A stretch of DNA of 64,000 nt, taken from the NCBI GenBank assembly GCA_000004985.1, contig GG738911.1; one strand, given 5' to 3'. Below, piece by piece: positions 3,001 to 55,300 of this stretch. The notes below the pieces were generated by a model. It ran no database searches. It had not been told where the DNA came from and worked only from the letters and a program-made list of their open reading frames with translations. This DNA is from Naegleria gruberi (lineage: Eukaryota). The position numbers and the translations under genes were made by a program. How positions within the stretch are numbered: the stretch's first letter is position 1; each line of letters opens with the position of its first letter.

Positions 3001-6000
3001 ACCTGACCTTTTGTAAGAGAATACTCCTGCACTAACTTTCCATTCATAGGAAACCAAAGTTGAGCAATTTTTTCCACAACCTAAAAAGTATCTAATAGTA
3101 GTTGTGTTCAGAGTGATACTGTTAATAACAGTTGAAATGGTTTGATCTTGAGTACCTGAAACTAGAACAGATGGTAAACCAAAGCTTCCCAAAGTTGGCT
3201 CATTCAATTCATACTTGACTACTAATTTGAATTGTTGCAGGTTGGATTTTCTGCTTTGGAATGGTTGAATATTAGCAATGGATGCATTTGCAATGAAAGT
3301 GTAATTGCCTGCTTGAGTAACATCAGTTAATGTAGAGTTGATTAACAAACGATTGGATTCCACATAGAAAACCACATTTTGTCCATCACATTCAACACAT
3401 GACCAGGTGTAGGAAATATTTGGACTTTGGCTTAATACTTGATCTATTAATTGAATTTCCACACTGACAGTCTTGTTATCAAATTCCAAATAGACAACCT
3501 CTTCATATTTTGTAATGTTAATTTGGAATGGACTAATATTCACTGAACAATCCTTATTGGTGAATCCTTCAACACAAGAACAGTAATTTGGTGATACACA
3601 TTGTCCCTTTCCTGAGCAAACACTCGATTCGTTGAACAAGGTACCAAAGCAATTGTGCAATTCACATGTTTGGCCATAATATCCTGGTTGACATGTGCAG
3701 TTATCTGGAACAAAGCATGAACCATGACTTGAGCAAACGTTGGTATCATTAAAAAGAATTCCAAAGCAATTATGATTTGAACAATCAAATGAAAAATATC
3801 CTTCTTGGCATGAACAGTTATTTGGACTCAGACAAGTTCCATGTTTGAAACAAACATTTGAAGAATTCTTATGAACTCCAAAGCAATCATGTTCAGAACA
3901 TTCAGGTCCATAATACCCAGCTTCACAGAAGCAATTATTTGGAGATAAACATTGTCCATGAGTGGAACAAACATTAGAATTGTTAAATAAAGTGCCATAG
4001 CATTGGTGAGCTTCACACTGATATCCATAATATCCTGGTTGACATGTACAATTATTTGGAACTGGACATGAACCATGGCCACTACAAACATTCATTGTAT
4101 CATTGAATAAATGGCCATAACATTCATGGTTGGAACAATCAAATGAAAAATAACCGGTCTGACATGAACAATTATTTGGACTCTAACAAGTTCCATGCTG
4201 GAAGCACACATTCGAAGAATTCTTATGAACTCCAAAGCAATCATGTTCAGAACATTCAGCTCCATAATATCCAGCTTCACAGAAGCAATTATTTGGAGAT
4301 AAACATTGTCCATGAGTGGAACAAACACTTGAACTATTGAATAGAGTACCATAACAGTTGTGCAATTCACATGTTTGCCCATAATATCCAGCTTGACATG
4401 TGCAGATATTTGGTGAGTCACATGAACCGTGAGATGAGCAAGTACTACTATTTAAATGTTCCACTCCAAAGCAATTGTACAATCCACAATCAGATCCATA
4501 GAAAGGAACTAAACAACTACAATTATTATAGGCTGTACATGATCCTCGTCCTGAACAGACAGTTGAGGAATTCCTAGAAGCACCATAACAATCATAAATT
4601 TCACAATTCTATTTTCATCACATGTACAATTATTGAATGAATGACATTGACCGTGTGAGGAACAAATATTTGGATTGTTTGAGAGAACTCCATTACAAAT
4701 ATTAATTTCACAGAATTTGCCAGTATGTTGCTCATCACACTGACAAGTATCGAATGCTGTACAATTACCAAATCCAGTACACACATTTGTTTCATTTTTC
4801 AATATTCCACTACATTCGAATAATTCACAATCTTCTCCATAATAACCCTCTTGACAGGTACAATTTTCTGGTGAAGAACATGATCCATGTCCTGAACAAA
4901 CCATTGAAGAATTATTGATAATTCCATTACACATATAATTTTCACAATTATCTCCAAAGTATAACTCTGGACAAGTGCAATTATTCTTTGAATCACATGA
5001 TCCTACTCGAGAGCATACATTTGGTTGATCGAATCTAATTCCACCACAGTCATAGTACTGGCATTCAGATCCATATCTTCCTGCTTGACAATTACTACAT
5101 GTATTTGGTGAAGAACATGTTCCAAATCCACTGCAAACATTTGGATCACTTGGTGCAAGGCCATTACAATAATACAATTCACAAAATGTTCCTGAATATC
5201 CTGTTTGACATGAGCAAGTATTTGGACCAGTACATGTTCCACGACCATTGCAAACAGTACCAACTTGAGAATAGAGAATACTATTGCAATAGTAATTTGA
5301 ACACGTACTTCCTGAATATCCAGAATAGCATGAGCAACTATCTCGAGCATTACATGATCCATGTCCACTACAAGCACTCGATCCATATAATCCATAACAG
5401 AGATATTCATTACACTGAGAACCAGACCAAGTGTAGGTCAGTGAATTTCCAAAATACTGATTGGCTGTCCAGCAAACTTCCTTCTGGGCACCATAGAGTA
5501 CCAAATTACCATCTGATATTATCATTGATGATGTTGATGTTGATGGAATAAACAACTCACTCCATCATAACAATTCAATAGAAACTTACCTGATTGCATG
5601 ACTAATCTGAAAGGGGCTGTACCAGAGGTGCATGCAGAAGAAATTGTCTTTAAAACACCTCCCTGGTCTCGTATCTCAAGAGTGCCATCCAATGACAATA
5701 CTAAATTATACGGAGCTGTTCCTTGTCCATTAGTATCAGATGCCCAATAGGCAACCAATCCAGGTTTATAAAGCACCAAATTGCCATCCACTTGTTGTTT
5801 CAATTGGTAAATTCCATTCGATGAGTAAATAGAATTTGATTGATAGAGGTTGTTGGTTCCACCCGATGAATACAGAGTGTTACCACTTGTTGAATCCACA
5901 CAATAGCAATTATTTGACCCAGCACAGAAGCCATGTCCACCGCATGAGTTCAAATCTGTGGCCGAATAGCCATAACATGTATTGACAGCCAAAACTGAGA

Positions 6001-7107: not shown

Positions 7108-9021
7108 TTATGGAAGAGGTGAATTTTGAGAGGAAACTAAATTGTTTGTACTTGATATTGTCGACAATAGTTCAGAAGTTGATTCATTATTCACCACTGA
7201 TTGATCAATTGGATAGGCCATTTGTGAATTCTTGATAGAAGGCCTTCTGCTAGATTTCTCTTCCTTCTTCTCATCCCTCATTCCTTTCCATGTACATTTC
7301 ATCAATTCATAACATTTCATCACTCTATCAGTTATTCGATCTCCGTACATTATTCTAAACGATTCCTCATTCAAGGTAATGTAAGTACACGAACTGATGA
7401 GTGTTATCAAACTGGTATCGAGAAAGATATTTCTTGTAATTCCCCAAAATAATCCTAAAATGTCATAACCAAGAATGAATGTGAACAAGTTCAGGAAACA
7501 AACAATCAAGACACCAATTGACAAGATGGAAACAAGGAGAATAAACTTGGTGAAACGATATTCGAGAATTCCAGCATTCGAATCTCGTTTTCTCAAAGTT
7601 AAAAAGATTTTGAATCCATAAAACATAAAACCAATGACAAATGTCAATAAAAATAATGGAACTGAAGCTCCAAGTACAATCCATGCATAACCATAATCTG
7701 AAACTGTGGCGTAAACTATTCCAGAAATAATCAAAACTAAAATGACTCCCAAATAGAAAGCAATTAAAATTGCCTTATTAAGTTTGGACAAACCTTTGGA
7801 TCCTTGGTCTTTCCTTGTGGATATGTCAATCACGTGTGACCATGAAATAACCAATGAACTGTAGGCACAAACAACAAAGACTGCGGAGATTCCTCGGAAT
7901 AATCCAGAAAAGTAGCGATCATTGAAATCTTTGGTTTGGGAAAAGTTAAAAACAAATCGGAAAAGATTTTCTAAGCCACCACATAGACAACTCATACTTA
8001 ACATGATTGGAGGATGCATGACAATGTCAAAAAAGTGTTTCATCGTCTTTCTAAATTTGGAAAATAAAGCTGCTCCAGAAAAGGAAATATCTCTCATGGC
8101 CATTTGTCTAAATTTCTTAATTCTCTCAATCAACCTTGGTAGAAGAATAGCCCAAACAATGAACATGAACAATCCCTCGAAAATTATAAAGAAAATCCAC
8201 TGAACAGCTCTATAACTCAATGGAATAAAGAATAAATGATAAGCATCATTACAGTAGAAAGCAAACGAAAGTGAATTTGGATTTTGGTAATTACACCAAC
8301 ATAGAACAGGTAAGTGAAAAGGTCCTTGTCTTTTCAAATCAGCCAAATCTTCCCTAGAAATGCTATTGAAAAAGGAAAACATTTCGTATAGAGAAACATA
8401 TTTCGTATTCACAGTTTCGTTTCGACTTTTCTTATAATCTCCCAATTTTCCAACAAAGAACGGAGTAGTCAACATTTCATAATCAAACAATGGCAAATCC
8501 ACCATCTCCTCTCCAGTATTACATTGTCGTTTCAGAACCATTGTAAACTCAATCTCTGAAAATATTTGATTCACATCAAAACATGTTCCATTATTGTAAA
8601 TCTCCACAAATTCACCTCTATTTTCCATATGTTTACAATAAAGACAAGCATTCACAGCCGAATCCACCTGATCCAATTGTTCAATATTAGTCAAGTTCAG
8701 TAAAACTTGATTCATCTTGTTACAAAGAAGATCAGAACAAGAATTAATATCAAACTCTCCTAAAAGTTGAAATCTTTGCGAAAAACTTGCGTTTGTTGAA
8801 CAATATTCAAAAATTGTCGAGTCGAGTGAAAATAATCTTGGAAAATAGGATTGACTGACAGGTGGCAGACGCATTACTTCATCGACAGCCACAAGAACAT
8901 GATCAAGTTGTGGTAGCTGTCCTAGATGTTGTGTTTCGAAAGTTTGGCTTGTTGAGCTGTAACTGTCACTGATCAAGAGTGAAATGATTAACAGGACAAG
9001 TGTCAATGCAAATCGTGACAT
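7108..9021 (-). CDS. Signal peptide plus a roughly 260-aa cysteine-containing luminal domain plus 7TM. Possibly a LUSTR-family (GPR107/108/TMEM87-like) seven-transmembrane protein.
   Basis: 637-aa ORF. N-terminal hydrophobic leader MSRFALTLVLLIISLLIS. Seven predicted TM helices in the C-terminal half. Short cytosolic tail. Family assignment rests on architecture only. Confidence 0.35.
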   Translation of the reverse strand: MSRFALTLVLLIISLLISDSYSSTSQTFETQHLGQLPQLDHVLVAVDEVMRLPPVSQSYFPRLFSLDSTIFEYCSTNASFSQRFQLLGEFDINSCSDLLCNKMNQVLLNLTNIEQLDQVDSAVNACLYCKHMENRGEFVEIYNNGTCFDVNQIFSEIEFTMVLKRQCNTGEEMVDLPLFDYEMLTTPFFVGKLGDYKKSRNETVNTKYVSLYEMFSFFNSISREDLADLKRQGPFHLPVLCWCNYQNPNSLSFAFYCNDAYHLFFIPLSYRAVQWIFFIIFEGLFMFIVWAILLPRLIERIKKFRQMAMRDISFSGAALFSKFRKTMKHFFDIVMHPPIMLSMSCLCGGLENLFRFVFNFSQTKDFNDRYFSGLFRGISAVFVVCAYSSLVISWSHVIDISTRKDQGSKGLSKLNKAILIAFYLGVILVLIISGIVYATVSDYGYAWIVLGASVPLFLLTFVIGFMFYGFKIFLTLRKRDSNAGILEYRFTKFILLVSILSIGVLIVCFLNLFTFILGYDILGLFWGITRNIFLDTSLITLISSCTYITLNEESFRIMYGDRITDRVMKCYELMKCTWKGMRDEKKEEKSSRRPSIKNSQMAYPIDQSVVNNESTSELLSTISSTNNLVSSQNSPLP

Positions 9022-9489
9022 TTTTTTAAATTATGAAAAAGTTCGGTTTGACCTTTCGGATATGTTAGCGAGATCAAAGAATCCAAATGCCAAAACTTGG
9101 CAAGACGAAACTTGCAATTTTCATGGACACAAAAGTTTTTCTTCATGAAAAGTTGAGTCAGCTCAACTACTACATTGTGGACTGTGTGGTGAAACTAATT
9201 GTATTCTAATCTAAAGTTATTCGAAAGTTTCGAATAGTTACAATTAGAAGAACACAGAATAATCTTTGTAAGAATTCGAAATAGCATTTATTTACATTTC
9301 TGCAAATTTTCTCCTTTTCGTTCTCATCCAAATTTAGAAACATGATTATTTCAAATTTTACAATTTTGGAAATTTACATTAAGGTCATGTTTCTTCAATT
9401 GTAAACTTTCTCCATTCATTTCAGATAACAAACGAAATAAATTCGAATAGTTTGTTATCAATTCCTTTCCAATAACAAAAAAAAACAAA

Positions 9490-10443
9490 ATGAAAAAACA
9501 AATCATTGCAATCGCATTAATTCTCCTCTTGGCTTCAGTCTTTGTCTTGGCAGGTGACGTTGACAGTACAAGTGATAGCTCAGATTCTGTTGCTACCACC
9601 AAACCAGCAGAAATTCCAGTTGGTGAAAATTCTGAGAAGAAACAAGACGAAAGTTCTAAAAAGGAAAATCACAAGAGAGACGAAACTAATGGAAAAGACG
9701 ACTTTAAGGAAACCAAGTTTGATGAAGATAAGAAGAAGGATTCTGAAGAGAAGAAATCAGACGAAACTCATAAGAAATGCAAACTCGTTTGTGTTAAATT
9801 CAAGACTGAAAAGGGAAAGTGTTTGAAACACGAAATGAAAGATCAAGAAAAGGTTTGCATCAAACACAAGACAGAAGGTGAAGGTACATGTTTAGAATAC
9901 AAGCATTCCAAAAGTTGTGAAAAGTATTCGAAACCAACCAAGAAATGTATCAAGCACAAGAGCGAGAAAGTTTGTCAAAAGAAGAAAACTGAAAAGGTCT
10001 GCGATGAATATACCACCAAAAAAGTTTGTACTCGTCATGCTACTGAATGCGACCAATACACCACCAAGAAGAAATGCGAAACAGTTTCGTCCACAGATTC
10101 GTATTCCAAAAGTGGAAAATCTTGTAAGAATGTCAAAGTTTGTGCAAAGGAAAAGAAGGTCTGCAAGCACTACAAGAAGGAACAAGTTTGTAAGAAACAT
10201 AAGAAAGTTTCCAAATGTATCAAATTCAAGACTGAGAAGAAATGCATCAAGCACGAGCAAACCAAGAAGAAATGTTTAAAGTTTAAGAAATTGAAGAAAT
10301 GTATTAGAAAGTCAAAGGGAAAGAAGGTTTGCATCAAGCATAAACTTGTCGGTGGTAAGAAGGTCTGTAAGGAATATGAAAAGAAGAAAGTTTGTGAAAA
10401 GAAAGCTTGTGAAAAGAAGGAAGCAGATTCCTATTTAATGTAG
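9490..10443 (+). CDS. Secreted lysine- and cysteine-rich periodic-repeat protein: signal peptide, an acidic/K-rich stretch, then about 26 Cys spaced every 10-12 residues in K-rich units such as KKCIKHK and KVCxK.
   Basis: 317-aa ORF with ATG at 9490 and TAG stop. Leader MKKQIIAIALILLLASVFVLA. Regular Cys periodicity. No recognisable catalytic motif. Confidence 0.55.
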   Translation: MKKQIIAIALILLLASVFVLAGDVDSTSDSSDSVATTKPAEIPVGENSEKKQDESSKKENHKRDETNGKDDFKETKFDEDKKKDSEEKKSDETHKKCKLVCVKFKTEKGKCLKHEMKDQEKVCIKHKTEGEGTCLEYKHSKSCEKYSKPTKKCIKHKSEKVCQKKKTEKVCDEYTTKKVCTRHATECDQYTTKKKCETVSSTDSYSKSGKSCKNVKVCAKEKKVCKHYKKEQVCKKHKKVSKCIKFKTEKKCIKHEQTKKKCLKFKKLKKCIRKSKGKKVCIKHKLVGGKKVCKEYEKKKVCEKKACEKKEADSYLM

Positions 10444-10603
10444 ACGAAAGGTCAGCGAAAGTTCTGCAATTTTTGTAAATTTTGCACGATATGAAATTGT
10501 GTGTGATTCATACGAGTGAGTTCCATCAATAAATTTTGTAAACACATTTCCAAAAATAGCAAATTTATATATAGAAAATATTTAAAACAATTAGAATTTG
10601 AAA

Positions 10604-43722: not shown

Positions 43723-46700
43723 TTATTTAAAATAATCGAATTTGAGTAATTGTTGGGCAGTTGGACGAGTTTCTCGATTCTTATCCAACATTTGTAAAAT
43801 TAATTGAATTAGTTCATTGGAGTAGGAAATTGAACAGTTTCTCATTTGTTTAGTGAGGATGGTTTGAGCATTTGATGATTGATTTCCCATTAATAAATTA
43901 CTGATTGAAGTTGTTTCGTCTTTGGTCATGATTTGATAAATTGAAACTCCCAAAGAAAAGATATCCGTGTTGAAAGAGTATGAGCTTCCCAGGGCGATTT
44001 CAGGACTAAAAATTCATGTGAATTTAATGAGAATTGATAATACTTACCTCATGAAGAGAGGAGTTCCAACATATGATTGACCTTTCATTTCTTGATGCTT
44101 TTTTGCCAATCCAAAATCTGCAATTACTATTTCGATATTATCATTCTTCAAATATTTGACAAAAATGTTGGATGGTTTGATATCTCTATAATATTATTTA
44201 GTTTAACCGATATTTCTTTTGAAACGTACCTATGAATAATTGATAGTTGAGAATGAATATAATTCAAACCTTCGCATGATTGTTTCAGTATTTGCTTAAT
44301 AATATTTTCAGAACATTCTCTTTTCAAAAATTGATTCAAATCACCACTTTCATAATAATCCATGTCAATACACAGTAAACTATCTTGGGTTATGAAATAA
44401 TCATTGACTTTCAAAATGTTTGGATGTTTGATGTGGCTTAATTGGGAGGCTTCTTTCATTATTGTATTTAAATCAGAGAATGATTCAAACTTGATTACCT
44501 TAACTGCCTTGATTCGATTTCCTGCTTTTGAATCATTAGCTTTATAGACACTTCCAAATGCACCTTGTCCAATCCTTTCTATATTAGTATATCTTGAAAA
44601 GTAATCTTCAGAATTAGAAGCAGCTGATCCGGCTGAAGAGGTAATAATTGTTGATCCAGTTGGGAAATCAGACAACTCAATATTTGAAGTGTTGATACTT
44701 GCAATATCTTTTCCTTTGTTCTTTTTTTTCTTGGAAAGACAAACAATTATTACAATTACCACAATAACAATAATCACCAAAATTAGAAAACTTGCAACTA
44801 TTGGGATAGTAATTGAAACAATTAAAACAGTGGAGGTATCTATGGAATTTGTTGGAACTACTTGCTCACAATATTGGCCTTTGAATCCTCCTTTACAAGA
44901 GCAAATATTGAAATCTGAGCAGTAACCATTTCCATTACATACTGATAAATCTGATGCAAGTGTTCCATTACAAGAGAGGGACTCACATTTAGATCCATAA
45001 TATCCTTTCAAGCATTCACAGCTTTGGTTTTGAGAGTTGAATATTGCATTTCCCACACATGAAACACTCAATTTTCGTATTGTGGTTTTAGTCATTGTAA
45101 TGAACTGACTAAGTACTAAATCACTATCAATGAAATAAACCTCTTCTGTGTTTTCATTATAGCCAATAGATGGCGAGAAACCCATAAATTTAGTGTCTTT
45201 CCCAGAAAGATTGCCTGAGTAAACGTTAATATTTTCGTTAGCACTTCCTGCTAGTGTTGTCAACAGTCCAGTTGTTCTAGTGTATTTTCGTATTATGTAC
45301 GAACCATCCAAAATAATAATATCTCCATTCTTTTTAACATAAAAGGATATTGGAGATGATAGTGAAGATTCTAAGGCTGGTAGATTATTTCCTGAATAAC
45401 CAGTCTTACCATTTCCAATAATTGTTCTCAGATAATAAGTTCCATTTGCCATCTTTTCAATTACCCTTAATAGTGTACTTGTGCAATAATAGATGGAATC
45501 CTCATTAGAGGAGTAAGAGAAGAGAATAGTACCAAAATTGGTAAAATTGGTAACTGGACCATCTGGAGAGTATGAAGAAGTTACATTGGAGGCAAATCGA
45601 GTCACAATCATTCCTGTCCTTTTTTCAAGTTTACGAAAACTTGTACTGTCCGAAAGGTAGATATCTCCATTTTCTGGATTGACAGACAATCCTTTGATTG
45701 CAATGTTTCTAAATCGTGTGTCCAAAGCTGGACCATCTGTAACTGCACCACAACCATTTCCTGCAATTTTGGTTACATTCATAGTATCCAAAAAAACTTG
45801 TACAATATGGCACACATCTACAATGAATAATGAATTATCAAAGGAAGAGTGAGCCATTGTTAATATAGATTCCGAAACTAAGAAAAAGAATGGAATTTGG
45901 CCCATTGTAGGACTCGTACCCTTTACACTCTCCGTTTGGGAAATAATTTCACCAGATGTTTCATTAAACTTCTTCAAAGAAAATCTATCCAAATAATATA
46001 TTACATTATTGGCCTCATCTCTTGCAAATGCAGATGTAATTTTACCAACTTTTCTGGAGGGGTTGATGCCAACAATTGTTTGTGTGGTAGCATTTGAGAT
46101 TGTAATGTAGGATGCAAAGGCACTGTTGTAAATTGCTCCATTGATTACTTTTATACTGCCTGATTGTCTGCAACAATATTTTAGTAAATTAATTGTTACA
46201 CAACTTACAATAAAGACTTTGATAAACTAACATTCTCTCCACTGTATCCACTGAAGTGCAGAATATATTTCCTGAATTGTTATACGAATCTGCTCCTCCA
46301 ATTTTTATGAGCTGGGAATCATTCAATCTCATTTCATAAACTTTGGCTTGAAGCATTAAATATATTTTGTCGTTGTCACATGAAAAACTTTGAAATGAAT
46401 TATCAGATGAATAAACTGTTTCATAAACTGAGAGTTCCGCCAAATTAATCTTCATTATTTTAGAATAAGAAACTAAGAAATAAACACTATAGTTTCCATT
46501 TTGGTTTACAATACATGAAGAAGTAATTGGGGGAATATTGTAAATTTGTGATTGTTCTCCATTTCTGTATATAGTTATGAAATTTGGAGAGGAAAAAAGC
46601 AAGGTACCATTTGATAAAGAATTCCCTATTCCACTAATTGAAGTGATACCGGTTGGGATGTTCAATGAAGAAAGTTGCTCTGTATAAATATTAAATAAGA

Positions 46701-47812
46701 ATACATCTGTGGAAGTGACAATTACCATATCTCCATTTGGGAATATATAAGTGTTGGTTACTATACCAATATACTTCCTCTTCGGTGAGTTTTCTATTTG
46801 TAATTTGGAATAACTCCCCAAAACAGTTTTGACCAATCCATTAGAAACCTTTCTGACAATACTACTGGTTTCTATGAAAAATAGTTCATTCTTGAACGAA
46901 AACGGGTAAGAAAGTGAAGATGTTGGACTTGTTTCGAATTGTTGAATATTTTCTCCATATGGATGATTGATGACTCCTCCAGAAAATGTGGAAACCACCT
47001 TGGTTCTTGTATCAATTTTTCTAATACAGTTATTTGTCTGGTCAACTAGGTAAACTATAGAATTTTTCAAAACCAAAGAGGAGGGGTTATAAAATAGAAC
47101 TTTCGAGTAAGAATCAATCAGATCATCTCCTTCATATCCATAGAGGTCTTGCTGTCCAATGAAAGTTGATTGTACTGCTGATCCAACAGATTTCATTTGA
47201 ACAAAATGCGAAGAAGGTGAAGTTGTCCAAATTTCATTTGATGATGTTACAAATATTCCATATCTTGATAATTAATGGAGTGAATAAACTGTTTAAAATC
47301 TTCACTTACAAATTTGATTGAGGACTCAAACCGTCAACAACTCTGTACTTTCCATTGCTATCAATACGTTTCACCCTTTCCTCATCTGTGAAATAAACCG
47401 TATCCTCTTTGCCATTGGAAACAACGTGAATATTCTTTGGAGATTTCATAATGACTGAATTGGCATCCACATTATCATAACTTCCATCCAAATATGCTTT
47501 TTCACCGCCAATAGTCGAAAGTACCCTTGTTGAAATGTCATACTTTTTGATGAGGTTGTTTTGTGTATCTGCAATGTAAAGAATATTATTCGAAGAAACA
47601 ACAATTCCCAATGGTTTGTTAAATGTAGCAGAGATGGAAGAAACTAGTCCTGTTGAAGCAGAAACTATTCTAATCTTATTGTTTTGAGTATCAGCTATAT
47701 ACAAATCACCGTTTGGAGAAACACTAAGAGATGAAGGAGTATTAAATAGAGTTTCTTTTGCATGATATCCATCACTGAAACCAGCTGTTCCCAATCCTCC
47801 AAAAACTACCAT
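43723..47812 (-). CDS. Receptor protein kinase, about 1400 aa: roughly 12 NHL repeats, 3 EGF-like repeats, one TM helix (VLIVSITIPIVASFLILVIIVIVVIVIIV) and a Ser/Thr kinase domain. At least five exons: 47812 to about 47312, about 47265-46205, about 46150-44230, 44185-44048 and 44005-43723. Introns of about 46, 49-61, 44 and 42 nt. The 5' end and signal peptide are unresolved.
   Basis: Kinase motifs are split across exons: ...LSIIH|RDIKPSNIF...IADFGLAK...GTPLFMS|PEIALG...DIFSLGVSIYQ. NHL signatures LYIADTQNNKIRIV and IVYLVDQTNNCIRKID. Donors GTAAGT and GTACGT. The ORF-track pieces 47306..47812, 46189..47196, 44148..45992 and 43723..43953 are its exons. Confidence 0.6.
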
Positions 47813-48131
47813 GCTCTCATTCTTGAACCCGTATCCAAATTTCGTCTCGCCAAAGTGTTAATGGTTTAACAAAATAAAACACATTTGGTTATGTTGTGTT
47901 TAAAAGTGTGTTAGAAGAAGTAAAATTAAATTCCTTTTGTTTTGTCCTTCCGAAACAAAGATTGTTTATTACATAATAAATTGATTGTTTTGATTTTCGA
48001 AATGATGAAAGTATTGTTTAACAATAGTAATTTAGATCGAACCAAACAAAAGGATCTTTATTTAGTCTCCACTATAAATTATTCCGAAAAGACCAAACAA
48101 AGCCAATACTGTTACTGTGAAAACAAGAGGG

Positions 48132-48276
48132 CACCATTATAAATATTTATCACGGTTGCTTCATACATCACCACAGCCACCATTATAAATATTCATCACA
48201 GTTGCCACCATTATAAATATTTATCATGGTTGCTTTAAATTACAGTGCCCACCAATATAAATATTCATCACAGAAC
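48132..48276 (+). repeat. Four head-to-tail copies (two exact-like, two degenerate) of a 28-29-bp unit CCACCATTATAAATATT(C/T)ATCA(C/T)(A/G)GTTGC, 37-181 bp upstream of the ORF at 48313.
   Basis: Copies at 48132-48159, 48177-48205, 48205-48233 and 48248-48276. Each contains a TATAAATA box. Confidence 0.8.
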
Positions 48277-48312
48277 CCACCAATCATTATTACCACAAAC
48301 CATTAAAAACAA

Positions 48313-50019
48313 ATGCCACCAAAAATACAACCTCCTACATGGTCGGAGAATGATAGAACAAACATAAAACAAATGTTTGATGCTTTTAAAAACAAATCTA
48401 TCCCTGAAAATGTTGATTTAATGAATTATGGTAGATATATTGCAAATAACTATTTAAATAGTAAAATTGTATTAGGAAATTTAAATACAAACAAAAGTAA
48501 CACGTGGAAAGAATGGGAAAAAAAAGGTTATTTAAATGATTTAGAATACTTCTATAATAATTTACAAGTGAAATACTATTTAACAAATATTAAACTATCA
48601 CCTACTAATAATCCGATTGTTGGAAATAATTATTTGATCGGAAAGGAAGTACAAGTAGATCCTAAAAAGTTATTATTTAAATCTACAACAACCAAAACTA
48701 TTAGATTAGGAAAAGGTATTTTAAGTACAATTAATGAAAATAATTATTCTATGAAAGATATTATTTATAGTACTAAATATAAAGAATGTTTTAATGAAAC
48801 AAATAGTTCATTAGATATTCCTAAACATTTGCTTTTTGAAATACCAATTGATTCTAACAAATCTACTCCAATATCAAAATGTCAAACTAAAACAGATTTA
48901 AATTTACAATCAATCAAACAATCATTCCCTCCATTATCAAGCGAAGTTGAAGAAAGTAATGTTTTTGATAATAAGGAATTAAAAATTAAAGAATTATTAA
49001 TAGATTCAACTAATGATGATGATGATAATTTGTTCGATATGGATTTAGTTTCAGAAATCTTGAAAAACAAAACAAAACCTCCATCAACTCCACCATCAAC
49101 AAAACTACCCACAACTTCTCCACCAACAACTCCACTAACAATTACTCCAACAATACCACCAACTCCACTAACAATTACTCCAACATTAGATTCTCTATTA
49201 CAAATTGCCACACCAGTAATTTTAAAAGGAGAAGAAAAAAAAAGAAAATTCGATGATTATGAAAATGATGAACAAAATGAAAAGGTTTTAAAAAGATATA
49301 TAAAATCATTAGAAGAAAAAATTAATAAGTTAGAAAAGAAAATAGAAAAAAAATCCAAAATTATTGAAAATCTTATGGAAAATCAAAACAATTCCAAGAA
49401 AGTATCAGAAATTGAATATATTATACAACAAACTAAACCTATTGCCGAAAATATTATTAATAATTCTAAAATAGTACAAAATTTTATTGGTGATGTTAAT
49501 GAATTATTAAGTCAAACACATAATTGTAAACCTGTTATTATAATGGAAAAGAAAAACAAAATTATTTTATCAGATGAGGAGAAAAATAATTACTTAAAAA
49601 TGATTACTTATCATAATGATAAATCAGTAACGTTTAATTTGGATAGTATATTAGGTAAACAAATAAGAATTTCTGAAAGCCAATATCAACAATTATTAAA
49701 TAGAGGAAATTTAAAATCTGGATTTACAAAAAACTTATTTTTGGAATTTTTTAAATTAAAATCTTCAGATTTAACAGAAGAACAAATTGAAAAGGTTTTT
49801 AGATTCTTGGCTATAATTAAACCAATAACTTTTGATAAAAAAAGATTTAAAAAAGATAGGAAAAATTTGGAAAAGAAAAAAACAAAAAACGATGATGATG
49901 ATTTTGAAGAAAATGAAATAACAAAAGATATTAATAATTCTGATAATGAAAAATTTGAAATATCAGATAATAATGTTAATCAATATGATCTTACAAATAA
50001 TTTAGAATGTATGTATTAA
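48313..50019 (+). CDS. AT-rich K/N-rich protein of unknown function (568 aa) with a Pro/Thr-rich linker and a coiled-coil segment. First ORF of the candidate element.
   Basis: Long uninterrupted ORF at about 25% GC. PPSTPPSTKLPTTSPPTTPLTITPTIPPTP linker. KRYIKSLEEKINKLEKKIEKKSKIIENL coiled coil. No recognisable enzymatic motif. Confidence 0.45.
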   Translation: MPPKIQPPTWSENDRTNIKQMFDAFKNKSIPENVDLMNYGRYIANNYLNSKIVLGNLNTNKSNTWKEWEKKGYLNDLEYFYNNLQVKYYLTNIKLSPTNNPIVGNNYLIGKEVQVDPKKLLFKSTTTKTIRLGKGILSTINENNYSMKDIIYSTKYKECFNETNSSLDIPKHLLFEIPIDSNKSTPISKCQTKTDLNLQSIKQSFPPLSSEVEESNVFDNKELKIKELLIDSTNDDDDNLFDMDLVSEILKNKTKPPSTPPSTKLPTTSPPTTPLTITPTIPPTPLTITPTLDSLLQIATPVILKGEEKKRKFDDYENDEQNEKVLKRYIKSLEEKINKLEKKIEKKSKIIENLMENQNNSKKVSEIEYIIQQTKPIAENIINNSKIVQNFIGDVNELLSQTHNCKPVIIMEKKNKIILSDEEKNNYLKMITYHNDKSVTFNLDSILGKQIRISESQYQQLLNRGNLKSGFTKNLFLEFFKLKSSDLTEEQIEKVFRFLAIIKPITFDKKRFKKDRKNLEKKKTKNDDDDFEENEITKDINNSDNEKFEISDNNVNQYDLTNNLECMY

Positions 50020-50026
50020 TAATTTA

Positions 50027-50608
50027 ATGTTAAATTTTTTAGTTTTATTTATAAATAGAGAAAGAAATATGATTATGAATAATGAATGGTTAAACGGAGA
50101 TATAATGGATAAATATTTACATATTTTACAATTACAATTCCCTTTTCTTCATTTAACAAAATGTTCTCAAAGTATTTATTTTTTGGATACTGTTTTACGT
50201 ATTATTAAAAGTGCAGAAAAAATAATAGATTATTCAAAACTTAATTTTGTTACACTCAATATACCAGGTACACATTGGTTGTTATTATGTATTAGTAAGA
50301 TTAAATCAATTGTTTATATGGACATTATTGATTCTAAAATTGATTTATTATGTGACAATCTTAAAAAAATGTTAATTAAATCATTCACACAAAACTTTTT
50401 ACCAGAAAATTGTGAATTAGTTTTAAGAAATATCAAATGTAAACAACAATCAAATGGATTTGATTGTGGATTATATGTGTTATCATTTATCCGTCAAATA
50501 GGTCAATCAAATATTGAAAATTTTAATCTTAGTAATATCAATTTTGAAAATACATTGATTATAACAAGAAACGAAATGGCTGAACAGATTAAACCAAATG
50601 GTAATTAA
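50027..50608 (+). CDS. Ulp1/SENP-like C48 cysteine protease catalytic domain (clan CE, same clan as adenoviral, poxviral and asfarviral proteases), 193 aa. Starts 7 nt after the stop of the preceding ORF, in another frame.
   Basis: Catalytic-core signatures in order: WLNGDIMDKYLHIL, LNIPGTHWLLLCISKIKSIVYMDIIDS (His), NIKCKQQSNGFDCGLYVLSFI (Gln...Cys). Confidence 0.6.
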   Translation: MLNFLVLFINRERNMIMNNEWLNGDIMDKYLHILQLQFPFLHLTKCSQSIYFLDTVLRIIKSAEKIIDYSKLNFVTLNIPGTHWLLLCISKIKSIVYMDIIDSKIDLLCDNLKKMLIKSFTQNFLPENCELVLRNIKCKQQSNGFDCGLYVLSFIRQIGQSNIENFNLSNINFENTLIITRNEMAEQIKPNGN

Positions 50609-50692
50609 ATAAAGCTTCATTATTTTATGTTTTTATTAAATAATCAATTAACAAAAGTAATTTAGAAGAACTAAACAAAACCTATTTATAGC

Positions 50693-50720
50693 CACCATTA
50701 TAAATATTCATCACAGTTGT
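50693..50720 (+). repeat. Downstream copy of the 28-bp repeat (CCACCATTATAAATATTCATCACAGTTG), plus a degenerate remnant at about 50766-50790.
   Basis: Identical to the core of copy 2 at 48177-48205. Followed, like copy 3, by TTAATTACAGT. Confidence 0.8.
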
Positions 50721-51424
50721 TAATTACAGTATATACGGTTAACGCTTACAACGACAACTTCAAGGGCACCATTTATTAATATTTGGCGCCAATATTAATT
50801 AAAAAAAACAACCATACAACACACTTGGCTTATAATTGGAGGTGATATGTTGTATTAATATTCTTACAACTTTTAATACAACCAATAAGTTATTATTATA
50901 TTATAATTTAATATTTGTTTTAGTATTAATGGTAGTTAGATTATTAAAATTAGAAGAATAATAAAGAATAAATAGATTAAATATTCCCGATTTAGTCATT
51001 CGTGTAAGACATGAATTGATTTGTAATATATAAAACTAATCTCTCTCTTTACTTCTTGTAAGTAATTTATATTGGAATTTAAATTCAATTATTGTAGTTA
51101 ATTGTGTGGAAATGGAAGAAATGTGAGGAAATTTAGTATGAATATTGATGATCTTATCTTTTTGAAGATGATGGAAATAATGATGATAGTAATTAAGAAA
51201 ATATTTTAAATGATATAGTAGTGATGAAGATAACGATGGAAATAATAATGAAGTTGGAATAATATATCACATGTTTCCCTCTGCGGAATACTTTTTACCA
51301 TTCAGAACTTTATATCTGCTTAATCCAATTATGAAATTTTCTTAATCTAAACATTAATAAACATTCTTCTCGAGTTTAACAAAATTGACTTTGTGCATCA
51401 AAATCATCTATGTTTCGTTGGTCC

Positions 51425-51600
51425 AAACTATCTTTATATTTTAGACAAAACCATATTGGTTTGGTTAGTCAAAACTATTTTGGTTTGATTGGTCCAAACA
51501 ATCTTCGTTTAGTTAGTAAAAACCATGTTGGTTTGGTTAGTCGGACCGGTGTTGGTTTTGTTGGTCCAAACAATATTTGTTTTGTCAAACAAAACAAACT
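51425..51600. repeat. Degenerate minisatellite of about 24-bp units (CAAAACCATATTGGTTTGGTTAGT-like), about 7 copies.
   Basis: Tandem units are visible by eye: caaaaccatattggtttggttagt / caaaactattttggtttgattggtc / caaacaatcttcgtttagttagta / aaaaccatgttggtttggttagtc ... Confidence 0.7.
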
Positions 51601-51678
51601 CGGCTTCACAAATGGCAAACCAAATTTATTTATTTTAAATTGGTCCATCCGTTTTTTGTTTTGTGCGGAGCGATTTCC

Positions 51679-51993
51679 TCATTTTAGATCGACAAAATAA
51701 AGGACCGTCCTGACACTAGGGAATATTCTGAATATCAGATGTCTTTCACAATCAGATACGTACATGTCCTCTTCCATGCCAAAACAAATACCGCATGGGG
51801 TTTTGAGATAGGCATACTTGGCATCAAACATAGTCAGCATGTCATGACCGCTGGCAGTGTTTCCAATCAATGTTTGCACTTTATAATCGAGTGCATGTAC
51901 GAACAATGATGGAGATGTATCTTGTAGGAGTAACATGCTGCTGACACATGTCAACAACAGCAAACAATGGATTGTTACAAAGGGCGTGGACAT
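51679..51993 (-). CDS. Small hypothetical secreted protein (104 aa, N-terminal hydrophobic leader).
   Basis: ORF with leader MSTPFVTIHCLLLLTCVSSMLLL. Weak support. Confidence 0.2.
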   Translation of the reverse strand: MSTPFVTIHCLLLLTCVSSMLLLQDTSPSLFVHALDYKVQTLIGNTASGHDMLTMFDAKYAYLKTPCGICFGMEEDMYVSDCERHLIFRIFPSVRTVLYFVDLK

Positions 51994-52371
51994 GGTTTCT
52001 TTTTTTTTGAAAGTAACAATTACACGTTAGCCCAACAATTACAAAATTGGACCTTTACACCATCCAATATACATGGTAGTATCGGAAGAAACGCAAATTC
52101 CCCAACACAGAATTCTCCCTAGTTTTACTCAGCTGGAGTTGGGTTTAAAAGAATTCTGTTGGTTTTCTCGTGGTGTTCTAAATCATCGGTGATACATTGC
52201 TGCTTAGTAGGAAGTACTTCCACTCGAACAAACTTTTGGATTTGTCGCGGTTACACTGATGGATGCGCGTTGCTATTTTTTTAAAAAGCGTGTTTTGGCG
52301 CCTTTTTTGTGAATAACAGAACCACAACAAGAGAAGTAAGAAAACTTTATGTTGGTATTTTAGGTTTAGTC

Positions 52372-55300
52372 TCATTTCGAAAGTGCTTGAATTCTCTGGA
52401 GTATTTGTGAAGGACTAATTCTACTGGCAGGATCATATCGTATCATTTCCCACAATAAATCACAACAGAGTTCAAATACCTCCCCTTGGTACTTCACTTT
52501 CTTACTAAATTGAACAATGGCAGGGAGAAGAACTTTCGTATCGGCCTCATCATTTCCTTGCTTGACTCTCAGCAATACAGATGCATAATCTCCTGAAAGC
52601 AGTTGATAAACTATGCATCCTAAACTCCAAATATCACTTGGTGGTCCGAATTCTCCCTTAATAATTGCTTCTGGAGCACTGTATTGTAATGTACCTTCGT
52701 AGGCAGTGAGATTGGAACGATGTTGATGTCTTGATGATCCCCAATCACCGACACACAATAAAAAATCATTATTCCATTCCAAGATGGATTTTGATGAAGA
52801 TTGAGGGTTTTCTGGAGCTTTTGCAATGAAAATATTGGTTTGTTTCAAATCTCTGTGGACCATTCCTTTTGAATGGAGATAGTCGAGAGCAGATGCTATT
52901 TGCTTGATAATTTCCAAAACTAATTCTATTGGAATTTGATTTTGATGGGTGTGAATCCAATTTCTCAAATCACACTTGTACAATGGCATGATGATACAAA
53001 TGAATAAACTATTCTCGACCATTGTACAACCTAAAATTGGTACTATGAAAGGATTGGATTCCTCACTCAATTCATACATATTTACAACTTCCTTAAATTC
53101 ACTTCCAAATGGATTGGTAACTTCAATCTGTTTCACAGCAAATAATTCATCAGTTGTAATCTCTTTAAAAATAAATACAGATCCATAAGCTCCACTTCCT
53201 AATTTCTTAACTAGTACATATTCCTTTTCACGAATTCTGAAATGATTTCTTGATGATAAAAGGTTTGGTGAGCTCGTTGAGGCAAGAGGACTGCTGATTG
53301 ATTTACTATTGCCAGGTAAATCTCTTGGATGATTTTCGACCTCATCAATGGTTTGAAGAGATACTGCTGTCTTATTGGTTGATGAATCTATTGAACTAAT
53401 TGTTTCAGGTTCTGAACGATAAACAAATGATGGTAAAAGACTCTTCTTTTCTGGATCTTGGTTTTTGTTTCTTCTAAACTTTTTAAAATAGACAAATACA
53501 CCAATACCTATGAGTGCTGATGAGATGCAAAGGAGAATAATACTAACAACAATTGCTGCAGCTGTTCCATTTCCAGAATCAATATCTTGACAAAATTTTC
53601 CACTATACCCATCATCGCATTGACATTTTGTTGAGTTTTGATTGGAAGCATTTTGACTGAGGACACAAAGACCATTAGATGAACACCTTTTGGTTGAGTT
53701 TTGAGATGGGTTATTTGAGGACGGATCACAATCCAACCAAGAACATGTTTCTCCAAAATAAAAAGGAAAACACGAACACTTATTGAATGAGACACAAACT
53801 CCTTGATCATTGCATCCACTAGTTCTCAATTTTCCAAAGCAGTAAGGTAATGAACAATCATTACCTCCATATTCTGAATTACATTTGCATGTGTTATTAG
53901 AAATGCATGAACCATGAGGTTGACAATTATTAACACCATCACAATTATATTGTGTGCATAGTTGACCTTCCCATCCACTATCACATTTACAAGTATTGTT
54001 GGAAATACATTTACCATTCGAGTTGCAACAGGTTGAATCATTTGCCAATTTCCCAAAACATATTGGAATGTCACAGAGATTTCCAACCCATCCCTCTTCA
54101 CAATCATAAATATTTGGTCCAACACATATTCCATGTTGTGATGGAATATCACAAGAATATGATCCACATTGCTCATTTCCTTTCCATCCACTTTGACACA
54201 AACATGTGTTATTTGAGACACATGTACCGTGTGAATTACACACCAATGAATTATTAGCTATTATTCCAAAACAAACTGGAATATTACACAAATCTCCATA
54301 CCATCCACTGGTACAGGAATACTGATTTGGTCCAATGCAATTCAGTCCATGTGTTGGCTTGGGAACATCACAAGAAAAATTGCTACACATTGAATTACCC
54401 CTCCATCCAGATAGACAGGCGCAACTTCCATTCACACAATCACCATGACCTGAACAAACTTGACCTTGTGAATCAATACACGAGTCAGAGTATCTCATTC
54501 TAATGGTAAAAGAATCGCTATATAGAAGAGCACCTTCTGTAGTTATGGCAACACCATTAGTTCCCTGAATGGCATCAGTTGTAACAGTTGAAATTATTCC
54601 ATCAGTATTAATCTTTCTGATAGCATTATTGCCTTTACAATCGTTAATACTCTCAACTAAAACCAGAAACCTACCTGAATCTGCAATGAAAATAACTCCA
54701 TTTGAGGTGACAGTCACTGCAAGAGGATAGCTTAATTGAGCACTAGTTGCTTGTTTCCCATCTCCTTGATTACCTCTTGTTCCAGTACCTGTTGTTTTCA
54801 TATCATTAACATTTGAGGACTAATTTGAAATATTTTAAGCTTACCTGCAATTACTGAAATAGTTCCTTTCGATAATTTCAAGATTTGATTTCCTCCACTA
54901 TTCGCAATATATAAATCCCCATTAGGAGTATAAAATAAACTTGTCGGATAATTCAACAAGTTCGAGGTAGAAAGTGTTGTAATGGTCTTATCATTATTGA
55001 CCCTCCTAATAATATTCACTCTACTATCTGCAAAGTCGAAGAGGAATTGATCTGCCCACAATGATGGAGGCGCCACGACACCACTAGGTCCAGATAATGT
55101 ACATGAAGTAGCTGGTAATCCATCATTACAATTTCCATTATTGGATGCATATTTTCCTGCAATTGTTGAAATTATTCCAGTATTGTCCACTAATCTAATT
55201 AAGTTATTTGCACTATCTGCAATTAAAAGGCCGAGTGAAATCTTGGCCATAGCTTTTGGCTGATTCAAAAGAGATTGGATTGCTGGAATGCCATCATTGT

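What the first reader, a model, noticed from the sequence alone, without database searches (positions are those of the whole stretch)
9490..10443. Secreted protein built from Lys-rich units with strictly periodic cysteines
After a signal peptide and an acidic/K-rich linker, about 26 cysteines recur every 10-12 residues within K-rich units (KKCIKHK, KVCxK, KKCLKFK). I recognise no known fold (not EGF, Kazal, defensin or granulin spacing). The composition suggests a polycationic disulfide-laddered extracellular protein, for example wall or cyst matrix, nucleic-acid or metal binding, or antimicrobial. This is speculation.
Basis: seen in the sequence. Interest (0 to 1): 0.55.

Follow-up and report, generated by a model that had tools for sequence, protein, structure and literature searches.

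The report
Secreted lysine-rich giant beta-hairpin protein
An unannotated Naegleria gruberi gene encodes a secreted, very basic protein whose 24 cysteines sit in mirror-image positions, as if the chain folds into one very long two-stranded hairpin rod; it belongs to a small uncharacterised Naegleria family with no known fold.

Summary
The ORF is real (9490-10443, +, 317 aa) and the window is Naegleria gruberi. The numbers were off. There are 24 Cys, not 26, and the modal spacing is 9, not 10-12. The regularity beats 20,000 shuffles.

No identical or close protein exists in the public sets searched, so the gene looks unannotated. It is not an orphan: HMMER finds about 15 relatives in N. gruberi, N. 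fowleri, N. lovaniensis and metagenomes, all "hypothetical". None has a Pfam or PDB match.

The new finding is mirror symmetry. The k-th Cys from the N side plus the k-th from the C side gives a constant sum (403-408; 2 of 200,000 permutations do as well). This also holds in relatives with 15, 18 and 19 pairs. An AlphaFold model built with the family alignment (pLDDT 76) gives five mirrored strand pairs. That is one hairpin with arms of about 100 residues.

Whether the Cys form intramolecular rungs or link rods to each other is unresolved, because the model's register is 3 residues off Cys-Cys. Function is inferred only: a disulfide-cross-linked cationic extracellular rod, possibly in the cyst wall.

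The parts
9467..9489 (+). A-rich leader immediately upstream of the ATG (ccaataacaaaaaaaaacaaa). It lies in a 468-bp divergent intergenic region shared with the 637-aa membrane-protein gene at 7108-9021 (-).
   Evidence: Sequence read; ORF layout. A promoter role is inferred, not tested.
9490..9555 (+). Signal peptide, residues 1-22 (MKKQ + hydrophobic core + VLA|G).
   Evidence: All full-length relatives start with an equivalent hydrophobic N-terminus. No signal-peptide predictor was available; this is judged from the sequence.
9556..9774 (+). Acidic, mixed-charge, Cys-free linker, residues 23-95 (pI 4.8, net -7). It is specific to this paralogue. Relatives instead carry short VDSY/DTYKP motifs here.
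   Evidence: pLDDT is below 50 in the single-sequence model.
9775..10077 (+). N arm of the hairpin, residues 96-196, with 12 Cys (97, 101, 111, 123, 134, 143, 153, 162, 171, 180, 187, 196). It carries the family N-module gap signature 4-10-12-11-9-10-9-9-9.
   Evidence: AlphaFold strands E15-28, 31-40, 45-57, 62-91 and 101-109 in domain numbering, where domain residue = protein residue - 89.
10078..10122 (+). Hairpin tip loop, residues 197-211 (ETVSSTDSYSKSGKS). It contains a D-S-Y motif and lies between C196 and C212.
   Evidence: It is the central 16-residue gap about which the Cys spacing is palindromic. Lowest pLDDT in the model (46-55). The closest relative has VDSY in its tip.
10123..10410 (+). 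C arm of the hairpin, residues 212-307, with 12 Cys (212, 218, 225, 234, 243, 252, 262, 271, 281, 293, 302, 307). It carries the family C-module signature ...9-10-9-10-12-9-5, including the conserved K[HY]KxVGGKKxC...KKxVC block.
   Evidence: AlphaFold strands E121-129, 139-168, 173-185, 189-198 and 201-213 mirror the N-arm strands with i+j = 228-230.
10411..10443 (+). C-terminal tail EKKEADSYLM (residues 308-317) with a second out-of-ladder D-S-Y motif, followed by the TAG stop at 10441-10443.
   Evidence: Relatives end in 1-4 copies of [VI]D[ST]YKP-like motifs.
10528..10533 (+). AATAAA hexamer 85 nt downstream of the stop. The next gene, convergent on the minus strand, ends at 10604.
   Evidence: Sequence read. 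Its presence alone does not show use as a poly(A) signal.

Best explanation
This is a real, single-exon gene of Naegleria gruberi that appears to be unannotated. It encodes a secreted protein of about 34 kDa (mature pI 9.5, net +42). The protein belongs to a small, uncharacterised family seen so far only in Naegleria species and in environmental sequences.

Structure. After the signal peptide and an acidic linker, the Cys-rich domain (residues 96-317) folds as one very long antiparallel two-stranded beta-hairpin. The N arm (C97-C196) runs back along the C arm (C212-C307), and the tip is at residues 197-211. The 12 Cys of one arm are mirror images of the 12 Cys of the other: 97/307, 101/302, 111/293, 123/281, 134/271, 143/262, 153/252, 162/243, 171/234, 180/225, 187/218, 196/212. 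If fully extended (inferred), this is a Lys-covered rod about 30 nm long with a Cys-bearing rung about every 9 residues. Family members differ by whole rungs added near the tip (12, 15, 18 or 19).

Chemistry and role (inferred). The cysteines make disulfides. Either they form intramolecular rungs that staple the two arms, or they sit on alternating faces and link stacked rods. Either way the result is a rigid, covalently stabilised polycation. Out-of-ladder D-x-Y(-x-P) motifs sit at both ends of the rod (termini and tip) and, in relatives, in internal loops. They are candidate contact or cross-linking sites. The most likely role is structural: a cationic, cross-linkable brick of an extracellular layer such as the cyst wall or a surface coat.

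Shown: the gene, its composition, the family, the mirror symmetry and the modelled hairpin topology. Inferred: disulfide connectivity, rod length, cross-linking and location.
For: Organism: ORF 57020-58507 is identical to N. gruberi EFC38072.1. The neighbouring gene is 100% identical to an N. gruberi predicted protein.

Real coding gene:
- Only this frame has a positive codon score.
- Codon use is strongly skewed compared with 13 neighbouring ORFs. All 21 Val codons are GTT or GTC (neighbours use 40% GTA+GTG). ATC, ACC and AAG are preferred. GC3 is 0.41, the highest of 15 ORFs.
- The periodicity is not due to a DNA repeat.

Family:
- phmmer against 1.84 billion representatives gives 13 hits. 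They include N. lovaniensis C9374_009239 (9e-16), N. fowleri FDP41_004030, and N. gruberi NAEGRDRAFT_67458 and _66117.
- A profile search adds N. fowleri FDP41_001988.
- A full-length 326-aa metagenomic relative is 37% identical (BLASTP 3e-33).
- Cys columns and specific blocks (C[DE]KYSKPTKKC, K[HY]KxVGGKKxC) align position by position.

Hairpin topology:
- Cys sums are 404, 403, 404, 404, 405 (seven times), 408. The palindrome score is 6, against 28.2 +/- 4.1 in permutations; 2 of 200,000 do as well.
- Relatives show the same mirror symmetry: 15 pairs (P0004 sums 382-385; L006 361-366), 18 pairs (four proteins) and 19 pairs (P0012 1093-1098). For these the counts were 0 of 20,000 (2 of 100,000 for L006). 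One further 15-pair relative, P0010, is not significant (2,051 of 20,000).
- The arms always carry equal Cys numbers, although length varies only near the centre.
- N. fowleri P0004 lacks three N-arm Cys of the N. lovaniensis protein (C180, C202, C206) and also exactly their three mirror partners (C269, C247, C243).
- AlphaFold with the 15-sequence alignment gives pLDDT 76, with two blocks above 90. The model is all-beta. Five N-arm strands are matched in length by five C-arm strands, with i+j = 228-230.

No known fold or family.
Against: - No transcript, peptide or localisation evidence was found for this gene or its relatives. The exact protein is absent from assemblies indexed by product.
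- The model's register (i+j = 230 in domain numbering) is 3 residues off the Cys-Cys register (227). Only C196/C212 face each other in the model.
- The same +3 register gives the fewest like-charge clashes (-8, against -40 at offset 0). It is also the only register with rung-specific charge or hydrophobic complementarity (z = 4.25 combined, positive in all 7 proteins). Intramolecular rungs are therefore not supported by the model.
- A period of 9 is odd. In a regular ribbon, directly opposed Cys pairs would alternate between non-H-bonded and H-bonded sites, and the latter are poor sites for disulfides (general structural knowledge).
- pTM is only 0.33 and the alignment is shallow, with 15 partly redundant sequences.
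- No syntenic orthologue lies next to the conserved neighbouring gene in N. fowleri or N. lovaniensis.
- The cyst-wall or matrix role rests on analogy only.
Confidence: 0.5

Rival explanations
1. Antimicrobial or prey-binding effector. The protein would be a giant relative, in principle, of cationic disulfide-braced beta-hairpin peptides such as tachyplesin, protegrin, arenicin and theta-defensin. It would be secreted or delivered to phagosomes to bind anionic bacterial envelopes, LPS, teichoic acids or DNA. The acidic linker (residues 23-95) would act as a charge-neutralising pro-piece, as in defensin precursors.
For: - Signal peptide, net +49 on the Cys domain, a beta-hairpin model and an anionic N-terminal segment.
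- Naegleria is a bacterivore (general knowledge).
- The only fold-search hits, all insignificant, are long beta-hairpin stems of pore-forming toxins.
Against: - At 34 kDa it is 10-15 times larger than hairpin antimicrobial peptides.
- It has very few hydrophobic residues for membrane insertion (33% K).
- The Cys spacing is odd (9), not the even 2 or 4 of the cystine-ladder peptides.
- The acidic linker is missing in every relative.
- No dibasic processing pattern separates units.
Confidence: 0.2
2. Different fold: a beta-meander or stack of short hairpins. Consecutive cysteines would pair locally (C1-C2, C3-C4, ...), with each 18-residue pair of units forming one small disulfide-closed hairpin. 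There would be no long-range pairing of the N and C arms.
For: - The single-sequence AlphaFold run drew short hairpins that put C153 opposite C162 and C225 opposite C234.
- The units are short and self-similar.
- Two of the three correlated Cys-pair losses in P0004 (202+206 and 243+247) are also compatible with local pairs.
Against: - That model has pLDDT 40.
- Local pairing does not explain the mirror-image spacing of irregular gaps (12/12, 11/10, 7/7, 17/18). Nor does it explain the equal number of Cys on either side of the centre in 12-, 15-, 18- and 19-pair proteins.
- It does not explain the joint loss of the distant C180 and C269.
- It does not explain the mirrored strand lengths in the pLDDT-76 model.
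Confidence: 0.12
3. Metal-binding protein. Cys and the His at +3 (C-x-x-H) would form repeated Cys/His sites for Zn, Cu or Ni. This is especially tempting in the modelled register, where each Cys faces the +3 residue of the other arm.
For: - His is the commonest residue at +3 (7 of 24).
- The AlphaFold register puts Cys and the +3 residue side by side on one face.
Against: - Position +3 is Tyr, Phe, Lys or Val in most units, and mostly Tyr, Trp or Phe in relatives. What is conserved is aromaticity, not a metal ligand.
- There are no CxC or CxxC clusters (the minimum Cys gap is 4).
- A secreted protein meets oxidising conditions.
- Family members were not found in the held supplementary files of the Naegleria copper study.
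Confidence: 0.05
4. Not a gene: a chance ORF or low-complexity artefact in an AT-rich eukaryotic genome. This would explain its absence from the published protein set.
For: - The exact protein, or any protein more than 50% identical, is absent from two very large protein collections and from the product index.
Against: - It aligns position by position with about 15 relatives from three Naegleria species and from metagenomes, with significant E-values.
- It has an intact signal peptide.
- It has a frame-specific codon signal and strong synonymous-codon bias.
- Its Cys periodicity is never reached in 20,000 shuffles.
Confidence: 0.02

Closest known systems
Uncharacterised Naegleria proteins NAEGRDRAFT_67458, NAEGRDRAFT_66117, FDP41_004030, FDP41_001988, C9374_009239 and metagenomic relatives (no Pfam family, no name)
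   Same: True homologues: a signal peptide, Lys/Arg-rich units with a period of 9, the same N-module (Cys gaps 4-10-12-11-9-10) and C-module (10-9-10-12-9-5/7), shared sequence blocks, and mirror-symmetric Cys.
   Different: This is the shortest full-length member seen, with 12 Cys pairs and no CC doublets. It is the only one with a 73-residue acidic linker in place of N-terminal VDSY/DTYKP motifs. Identity to the others is only 28-50%. It lies at a different locus from the syntenic N. fowleri/N. lovaniensis pair. It is apparently absent from the N. gruberi protein set.
Cystine-ladder beta-hairpin peptides (tachyplesin, protegrin, arenicin, theta-defensins)
   Same: A cationic two-stranded antiparallel hairpin with Cys in mirror positions on the two strands. 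This comparison rests on my own knowledge, not on a test done here.
   Different: Those peptides have 17-25 residues and 1-3 rungs at even spacing (2 or 4). This protein has about 220 residues and 12 Cys pairs at an odd spacing of 9. There is no sequence relationship. Intramolecular rungs are not confirmed here.
Cys-rich wall proteins of protist cysts, oocysts and spores (Cryptosporidium COWPs, Giardia CWPs, Entamoeba Jacob lectins, Dictyostelium spore-coat proteins, Acanthamoeba Luke/Leo/Jonah)
   Same: Secreted, lineage-specific, repetitive and Cys-rich, with multiple paralogues. They are thought to be cross-linked into an extracellular wall. This is an analogy in kind only.
   Different: No Pfam or profile similarity to any of them. 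The Cys pattern is different. Lys content is extreme. No carbohydrate-binding domain is recognised. Wall localisation is untested.
Elongated single-layer beta-sheet rods (for example the Staphylococcus SasG/Aap G5-E repeats and the central sheet of Borrelia OspA)
   Same: Long, thin beta structures without a conventional hydrophobic core that serve as extracellular rods. This rests on my own knowledge.

Membership tests
Unnamed Naegleria 'mirror-cysteine' family (P0002, P0004, P0010, P0015, P0019, L006 protein, and others) | Significant sequence similarity over the Cys domain | tested here: met
   phmmer E-values from 9e-16 to 2e-4 against 1.84 billion proteins. BLASTP 3e-33 to the L006 protein.
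Unnamed Naegleria 'mirror-cysteine' family | Shared Cys-gap signatures: N-module 4-10-12-11-9-10-9-9-9 and C-module 9-10-9-10-12-9-(5/7) | tested here: met
   The N-module is identical in the target and seven relatives. The C-module is seen.
Unnamed Naegleria 'mirror-cysteine' family | N-terminal signal peptide and no other recognised domain | tested here: met
   Hydrophobic N-termini in all full-length members. No Pfam hit in 9 members.
Unnamed Naegleria 'mirror-cysteine' family | Mirror symmetry of Cys positions (constant sum for the k-th Cys from either end) | tested here: met
   Target sums are 403-408; 2 of 200,000 permutations do as well. Six relatives give 0 of 20,000 and L006 gives 2 of 100,000. 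One relative, P0010, is not significant (2,051 of 20,000).
Cystine-ladder beta-hairpin antimicrobial peptides | Short peptide (<30 aa) with 1-3 cross-strand disulfides at even spacing | tested here: not met
   The domain has 222 residues and 24 Cys with modal spacing 9.
Cystine-ladder beta-hairpin antimicrobial peptides | Cys directly opposite each other across the hairpin, forming disulfides | tested here: inconclusive
   Mirror positions and correlated losses fit. The AlphaFold register and the charge tests put the Cys 3 residues out of register.
EGF, Kazal, defensin, granulin and other catalogued Cys-rich domains | Match to the family profile | tested here: not met
   No Pfam family at E<=1. 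The PDB profile search is empty at E<=10. EGF domains elsewhere in the same window are detected easily, so the method works on this genome.
Metallothionein-like or Cys/His metal-binding repeats | CxC/CxxC clusters, or conserved Cys+His ligand sets | tested here: not met
   The minimum Cys gap is 4. The +3 position is His in only 7 of 24 units and is aromatic rather than His in relatives.
Protist cyst or oocyst wall proteins (functional class) | Expression during encystment and localisation in the wall | not testable with these tools
   No expression or proteome record was found for any family member.

The most novel reading that the evidence does not exclude
The family would define a new protein architecture: a single two-stranded beta-hairpin with arms of 100-170 residues, built from 9-residue Lys/Cys/aromatic units. 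Its length would be set in whole rungs (12, 15, 18 or 19). Its cysteines would lie on alternating faces and link neighbouring rods rather than the two arms. In that case Naegleria would secrete a polycationic 'brick' about 30 nm long that polymerises by disulfides, and perhaps through its terminal D-x-Y motifs, into a covalent extracellular lattice such as the cyst wall. No wall protein of that structure has yet been identified in the literature I could search.
Probability: 0.3. Interest if true: 0.75.

Novelty: new variant of a known kind. Interest (0 to 1): 0.6.

Why it matters
- It adds a missing gene to the N. gruberi gene set.
- It defines a Naegleria-restricted secreted family that also occurs in the pathogen N. 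fowleri. That family has no Pfam entry, no structure and no literature that I could find.
- The mirror-cysteine rule predicts the topology directly from sequence. It gives a specific, cheap test: disulfide mapping and the particle shape of a recombinant protein.
- If the rod is confirmed, it would be an unusual natural scaffold: a core-less, modular, highly charged beta ribbon.
- It would also be a concrete candidate component of the poorly characterised Naegleria cyst wall or surface. That is of practical interest because cysts resist disinfection.

Tried and rejected
- Word-indexed homology search with the single protein found nothing at E<=0.01. The exhaustive HMMER search was needed.
- Exact-product look-ups for the target and for five neighbouring ORFs found nothing. 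Two of these were my own coordinate errors on the minus strand (and protein 2). So I could not see the annotated gene models around the target.
- Synteny: orthologues of the neighbouring gene in N. lovaniensis and N. fowleri have an unrelated coiled-coil gene where the target would be. tblastn of the target against those loci is negative.
- The single-sequence AlphaFold model was unusable (pLDDT 40).
With the C-terminal block it gave one locus.
- Literature: no paper mentions the locus tags of any family member. Searches on the Naegleria cyst wall, proteome and encystation transcriptome gave nothing usable. Supplement searches of three papers were empty.
- I compared codon bias with the tubulin gene in the window as a proxy for high expression. 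That tubulin is not strongly biased, so the 'highly expressed' reading of the target's codon bias stays an inference.
- The across-protein shuffle test of register had no power.
- Rejected: EGF/Kazal/granulin/defensin membership, metallothionein, a DNA-repeat artefact and a chance ORF. Reasons are given in the membership tests and rival explanations.

Full report
**What is there**

The window is Naegleria gruberi. ORF 57020-58507 is identical to EFC38072.1. The gene next to the finding is 100% identical to an N. gruberi predicted protein. The other large ORFs are typical eukaryotic genes: EGF-repeat receptor kinases, PAS, RCC1, tubulin and DDRGK.

The finding is an uninterrupted ORF at 9490-10443 on the + strand, 317 aa. 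It has three parts.
- Residues 1-22 form a classic signal peptide.
- Residues 23-95 are Cys-free and acidic (pI 4.8).
- Residues 96-317 are 33% Lys and 10.8% Cys, with net charge +49.

**Check of the observation**

There are 24 Cys, not about 26. The modal spacing is 9, and 14 of 23 gaps are 9 or 10, not 10-12.

The regularity is real. The coefficient of variation of the gaps is 0.26. In 20,000 shuffles it is 0.89 +/- 0.16, and none is as low.

The unit is [EK]-K-[VK]-C-[ILK]-K-[HYF]-K-[TK]. Lys occupies -2, +2 and +4. V, I and an aromatic residue occupy -1, +1 and +3. This is a two-residue alternation typical of beta strands.

There is no matching DNA tandem repeat, so the pattern is kept at the protein level.

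Only this frame has a positive codon score. Synonymous codon use is unusually skewed compared with 13 neighbouring ORFs. All 21 Val codons are GTT or GTC, and GC3 is 0.41 against 0.29. This fits a translated and possibly highly expressed gene. The link to expression level is an inference.

**Annotation status**

Neither the exact protein nor anything more than 50% identical is in the collections searched, although annotated N. gruberi neighbours are. The gene therefore seems to be missing from the public N. gruberi protein set.

**It belongs to a family**

An exhaustive phmmer search of 1.84 billion representatives found 13 relatives. The named ones are N. lovaniensis C9374_009239, N. fowleri FDP41_004030, and N. 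gruberi NAEGRDRAFT_67458 and _66117. The rest come from metagenomes. A profile search added N. fowleri FDP41_001988 and another environmental protein. A metagenome scan gave a full-length 326-aa relative, L006, that is 37% identical (BLASTP 3e-33).

The alignments show that this is not mere shared composition. Cys columns align one to one. So do blocks such as C[DE]KYSKPTKKC and K[HY]KxVGGKKxC...KKxVC.

All members are 'hypothetical'. None has a Pfam domain. No paper in the library mentions their locus tags.

The N. lovaniensis and N. fowleri 430-441-aa members are syntenic with each other, at a locus unrelated to this window. Next to the orthologues of this gene's neighbour there is no family member. 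This gene is therefore an N. gruberi paralogue without a detected positional orthologue.

**The main structural result**

The Cys positions are mirror-symmetric. Pairing the k-th Cys from the N side with the k-th from the C side gives sums of 404, 403, 404, 404, 405 (seven times) and 408. The irregular gaps are mirrored as well (12/12, 11/10, 10/10, 7/7) around the central 16-residue gap. The palindrome score is 6, against 28.2 +/- 4.1 under permutation. Only 2 of 200,000 permutations do as well, or 7 of 200,000 with the centre gap held fixed.

The same rule holds in relatives with different numbers of pairs.
- 15 pairs: P0004, sums 382-385; L006, sums 361-366.
- 18 pairs: P0002, P0019, P0015 and P0020.
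- 19 pairs: the P0012 C-domain, sums 1093-1098.
- For these the counts were 0 of 20,000, and 2 of 100,000 for L006. One further 15-pair relative, P0010, is not significant (2,051 of 20,000).

Length differences between members lie next to the centre and add equal numbers of Cys to both sides. N. fowleri P0004 lacks three N-side Cys of the 430-aa type and also exactly their three mirror partners. One of these pairs (C180/C269) cannot be explained by local pairing.

Tandem duplication would give translational symmetry, not mirror symmetry. An antiparallel pairing of the two halves explains what is seen.

**Model**

The single-sequence AlphaFold run was useless (pLDDT 40).

With the 15-sequence family alignment, the Cys domain reached pLDDT 76, with two blocks above 90. 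The model is all-beta. Five N-side strands (15-28, 31-40, 45-57, 62-91, 101-109) are matched in length by five C-side strands (201-213, 189-198, 173-185, 139-168, 121-129). Their positions sum to i+j = 228-230. That describes one giant hairpin with mirrored breaks.

**What remains unresolved**

In the model's register, each Cys faces the +3 aromatic residue of the other arm. This is 3 residues off a Cys-Cys register, and only C196/C212 face each other.

Two sequence tests of my own lean the same way.
- Pairing each rung with its true partner rather than a shuffled one improves charge and hydrophobic complementarity only at offset +3. The combined z is 4.25, and z is positive in all 7 proteins, though small in the target alone.
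- Offset +3 has by far the fewest like-charge contacts (-8, against -40 at offset 0).

A period of 9 is odd. Directly opposed Cys in a regular ribbon would alternate between favourable and unfavourable sites for disulfides (general structural knowledge).

On the other side, conserved Cys in secreted proteins are normally oxidised. The number here is even. Mirror partners are lost together.

I therefore treat the hairpin topology as fairly well supported. The connectivity stays open between two options: intramolecular rungs, and cysteines on alternating faces that link stacked rods. The sequences in these tests are partly redundant, so the z-scores are optimistic.

**Other features**

Out-of-ladder D-x-Y motifs lie at the ends of the predicted rod.
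- In the target they are TDSY in the tip and ADSY at the C-terminus.
- In L006 they are at the N-terminus (DSY, DTY), the tip (VDSY) and the C-terminus (DGY).
- In N. fowleri P0004 the C-terminus carries four consecutive [IV]D[ST]YKP motifs.
- In the 430-aa type the mirrored internal loops carry PDPY and DSYVPKPDTY.

Their role as cross-linking, adhesion or modification sites is speculation.

**Function**

Nothing tested here shows function. The combination of features fits best a structural extracellular component such as the cyst wall or a surface coat:
- secretion;
- extreme positive charge;
- many conserved Cys;
- modular length;
- Tyr motifs at the rod ends;
- several paralogues;
- restriction to one lineage.

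I rate that role at about 0.35.

A prey-binding or antimicrobial polycation is the main functional rival, at about 0.2. A local-hairpin meander is the main structural rival. Metal binding and 'not a gene' are unlikely.

**Verdict**

The 'no known fold' claim survives testing. The 'ladder' idea is upgraded to a specific, testable mirror-hairpin topology shared by a previously undescribed Naegleria family. Function remains inferred.

Noticed in passing
window 48000-52000: This is a low-GC island (0.245-0.27 against about 0.34 elsewhere). It holds a 568-aa ORF without Pfam hits (48313-50019) followed by a Ulp1/Peptidase_C48 ORF (50027-50608, 7.5e-11). Tandem repeats bracket it at 48132-48273 and 51411-51597. 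It looks like an inserted mobile or virus-derived element.
   Followed up: partly
window 44148-47812 and 52372-56657: Two EGF-repeat transmembrane protein-kinase ORFs (44148-45992 and 52372-54801) each have an NHL-repeat ORF upstream on the same strand (47306-47812, about 1.3 kb away with another ORF between, and the directly abutting 54798-56657). They are probably exons of NHL-EGF-kinase receptor genes.
   Followed up: no
window 3641-4432: A 354-bp tandem repeat (2.2 copies, 80% matches) lies in a region whose translation is EGF-like (the scan shows EGF-like Cys-rich stretches at 4000-4179 and 4396-4575), just downstream of the EGF-repeat ORF 4509-5555. This suggests recent duplication of EGF modules.
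   Followed up: no
window 60871-62214 (-): This is an alpha-tubulin-like gene (Tubulin and Tubulin_C domains). Its codon usage is close to the window average and its sequence looked rather divergent to me by eye (not measured). It could be one of Naegleria's specialised tubulins.
   Followed up: no
L003 and L004 (N. lovaniensis PYSW02000006.1 and PYSW02000078.1): The region around the orthologue of the neighbouring membrane-protein gene is present on two contigs with identical gene order. Each has a LINE-like ORF (Exo_endo_phos + RVT_1, 1424 aa) upstream. This is either a segmental duplication or an assembly duplicate.
   Followed up: no
P0012 / P0016 (environmental proteins, residues ~78-380): Two metagenomic family members carry about eight N-terminal repeats of a different Cys-rich unit (Cys gaps 18-5-5-8/12, CP-rich) fused in front of the mirror-cysteine domain. 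They have no Pfam match.
   Followed up: no
P0002, P0019, P0015, P0020, P0004 and the L006 protein: Most relatives carry one or two extra Cys as CC doublets next to a ladder Cys, which gives odd totals (37) in four of them. One rung carries the doublet on the N arm in P0004 and on the C arm in P0002 and P0019. These spare thiols could make intermolecular links.
   Followed up: partly
window 7108-9021 (-) and product index: The 637-aa neighbour is 100% identical to an N. gruberi protein in the homology database. Even so, the exact-product index reports no encoding contig for it or for four other window ORFs. The N. gruberi assembly therefore seems to be largely missing from that index.
   Followed up: no
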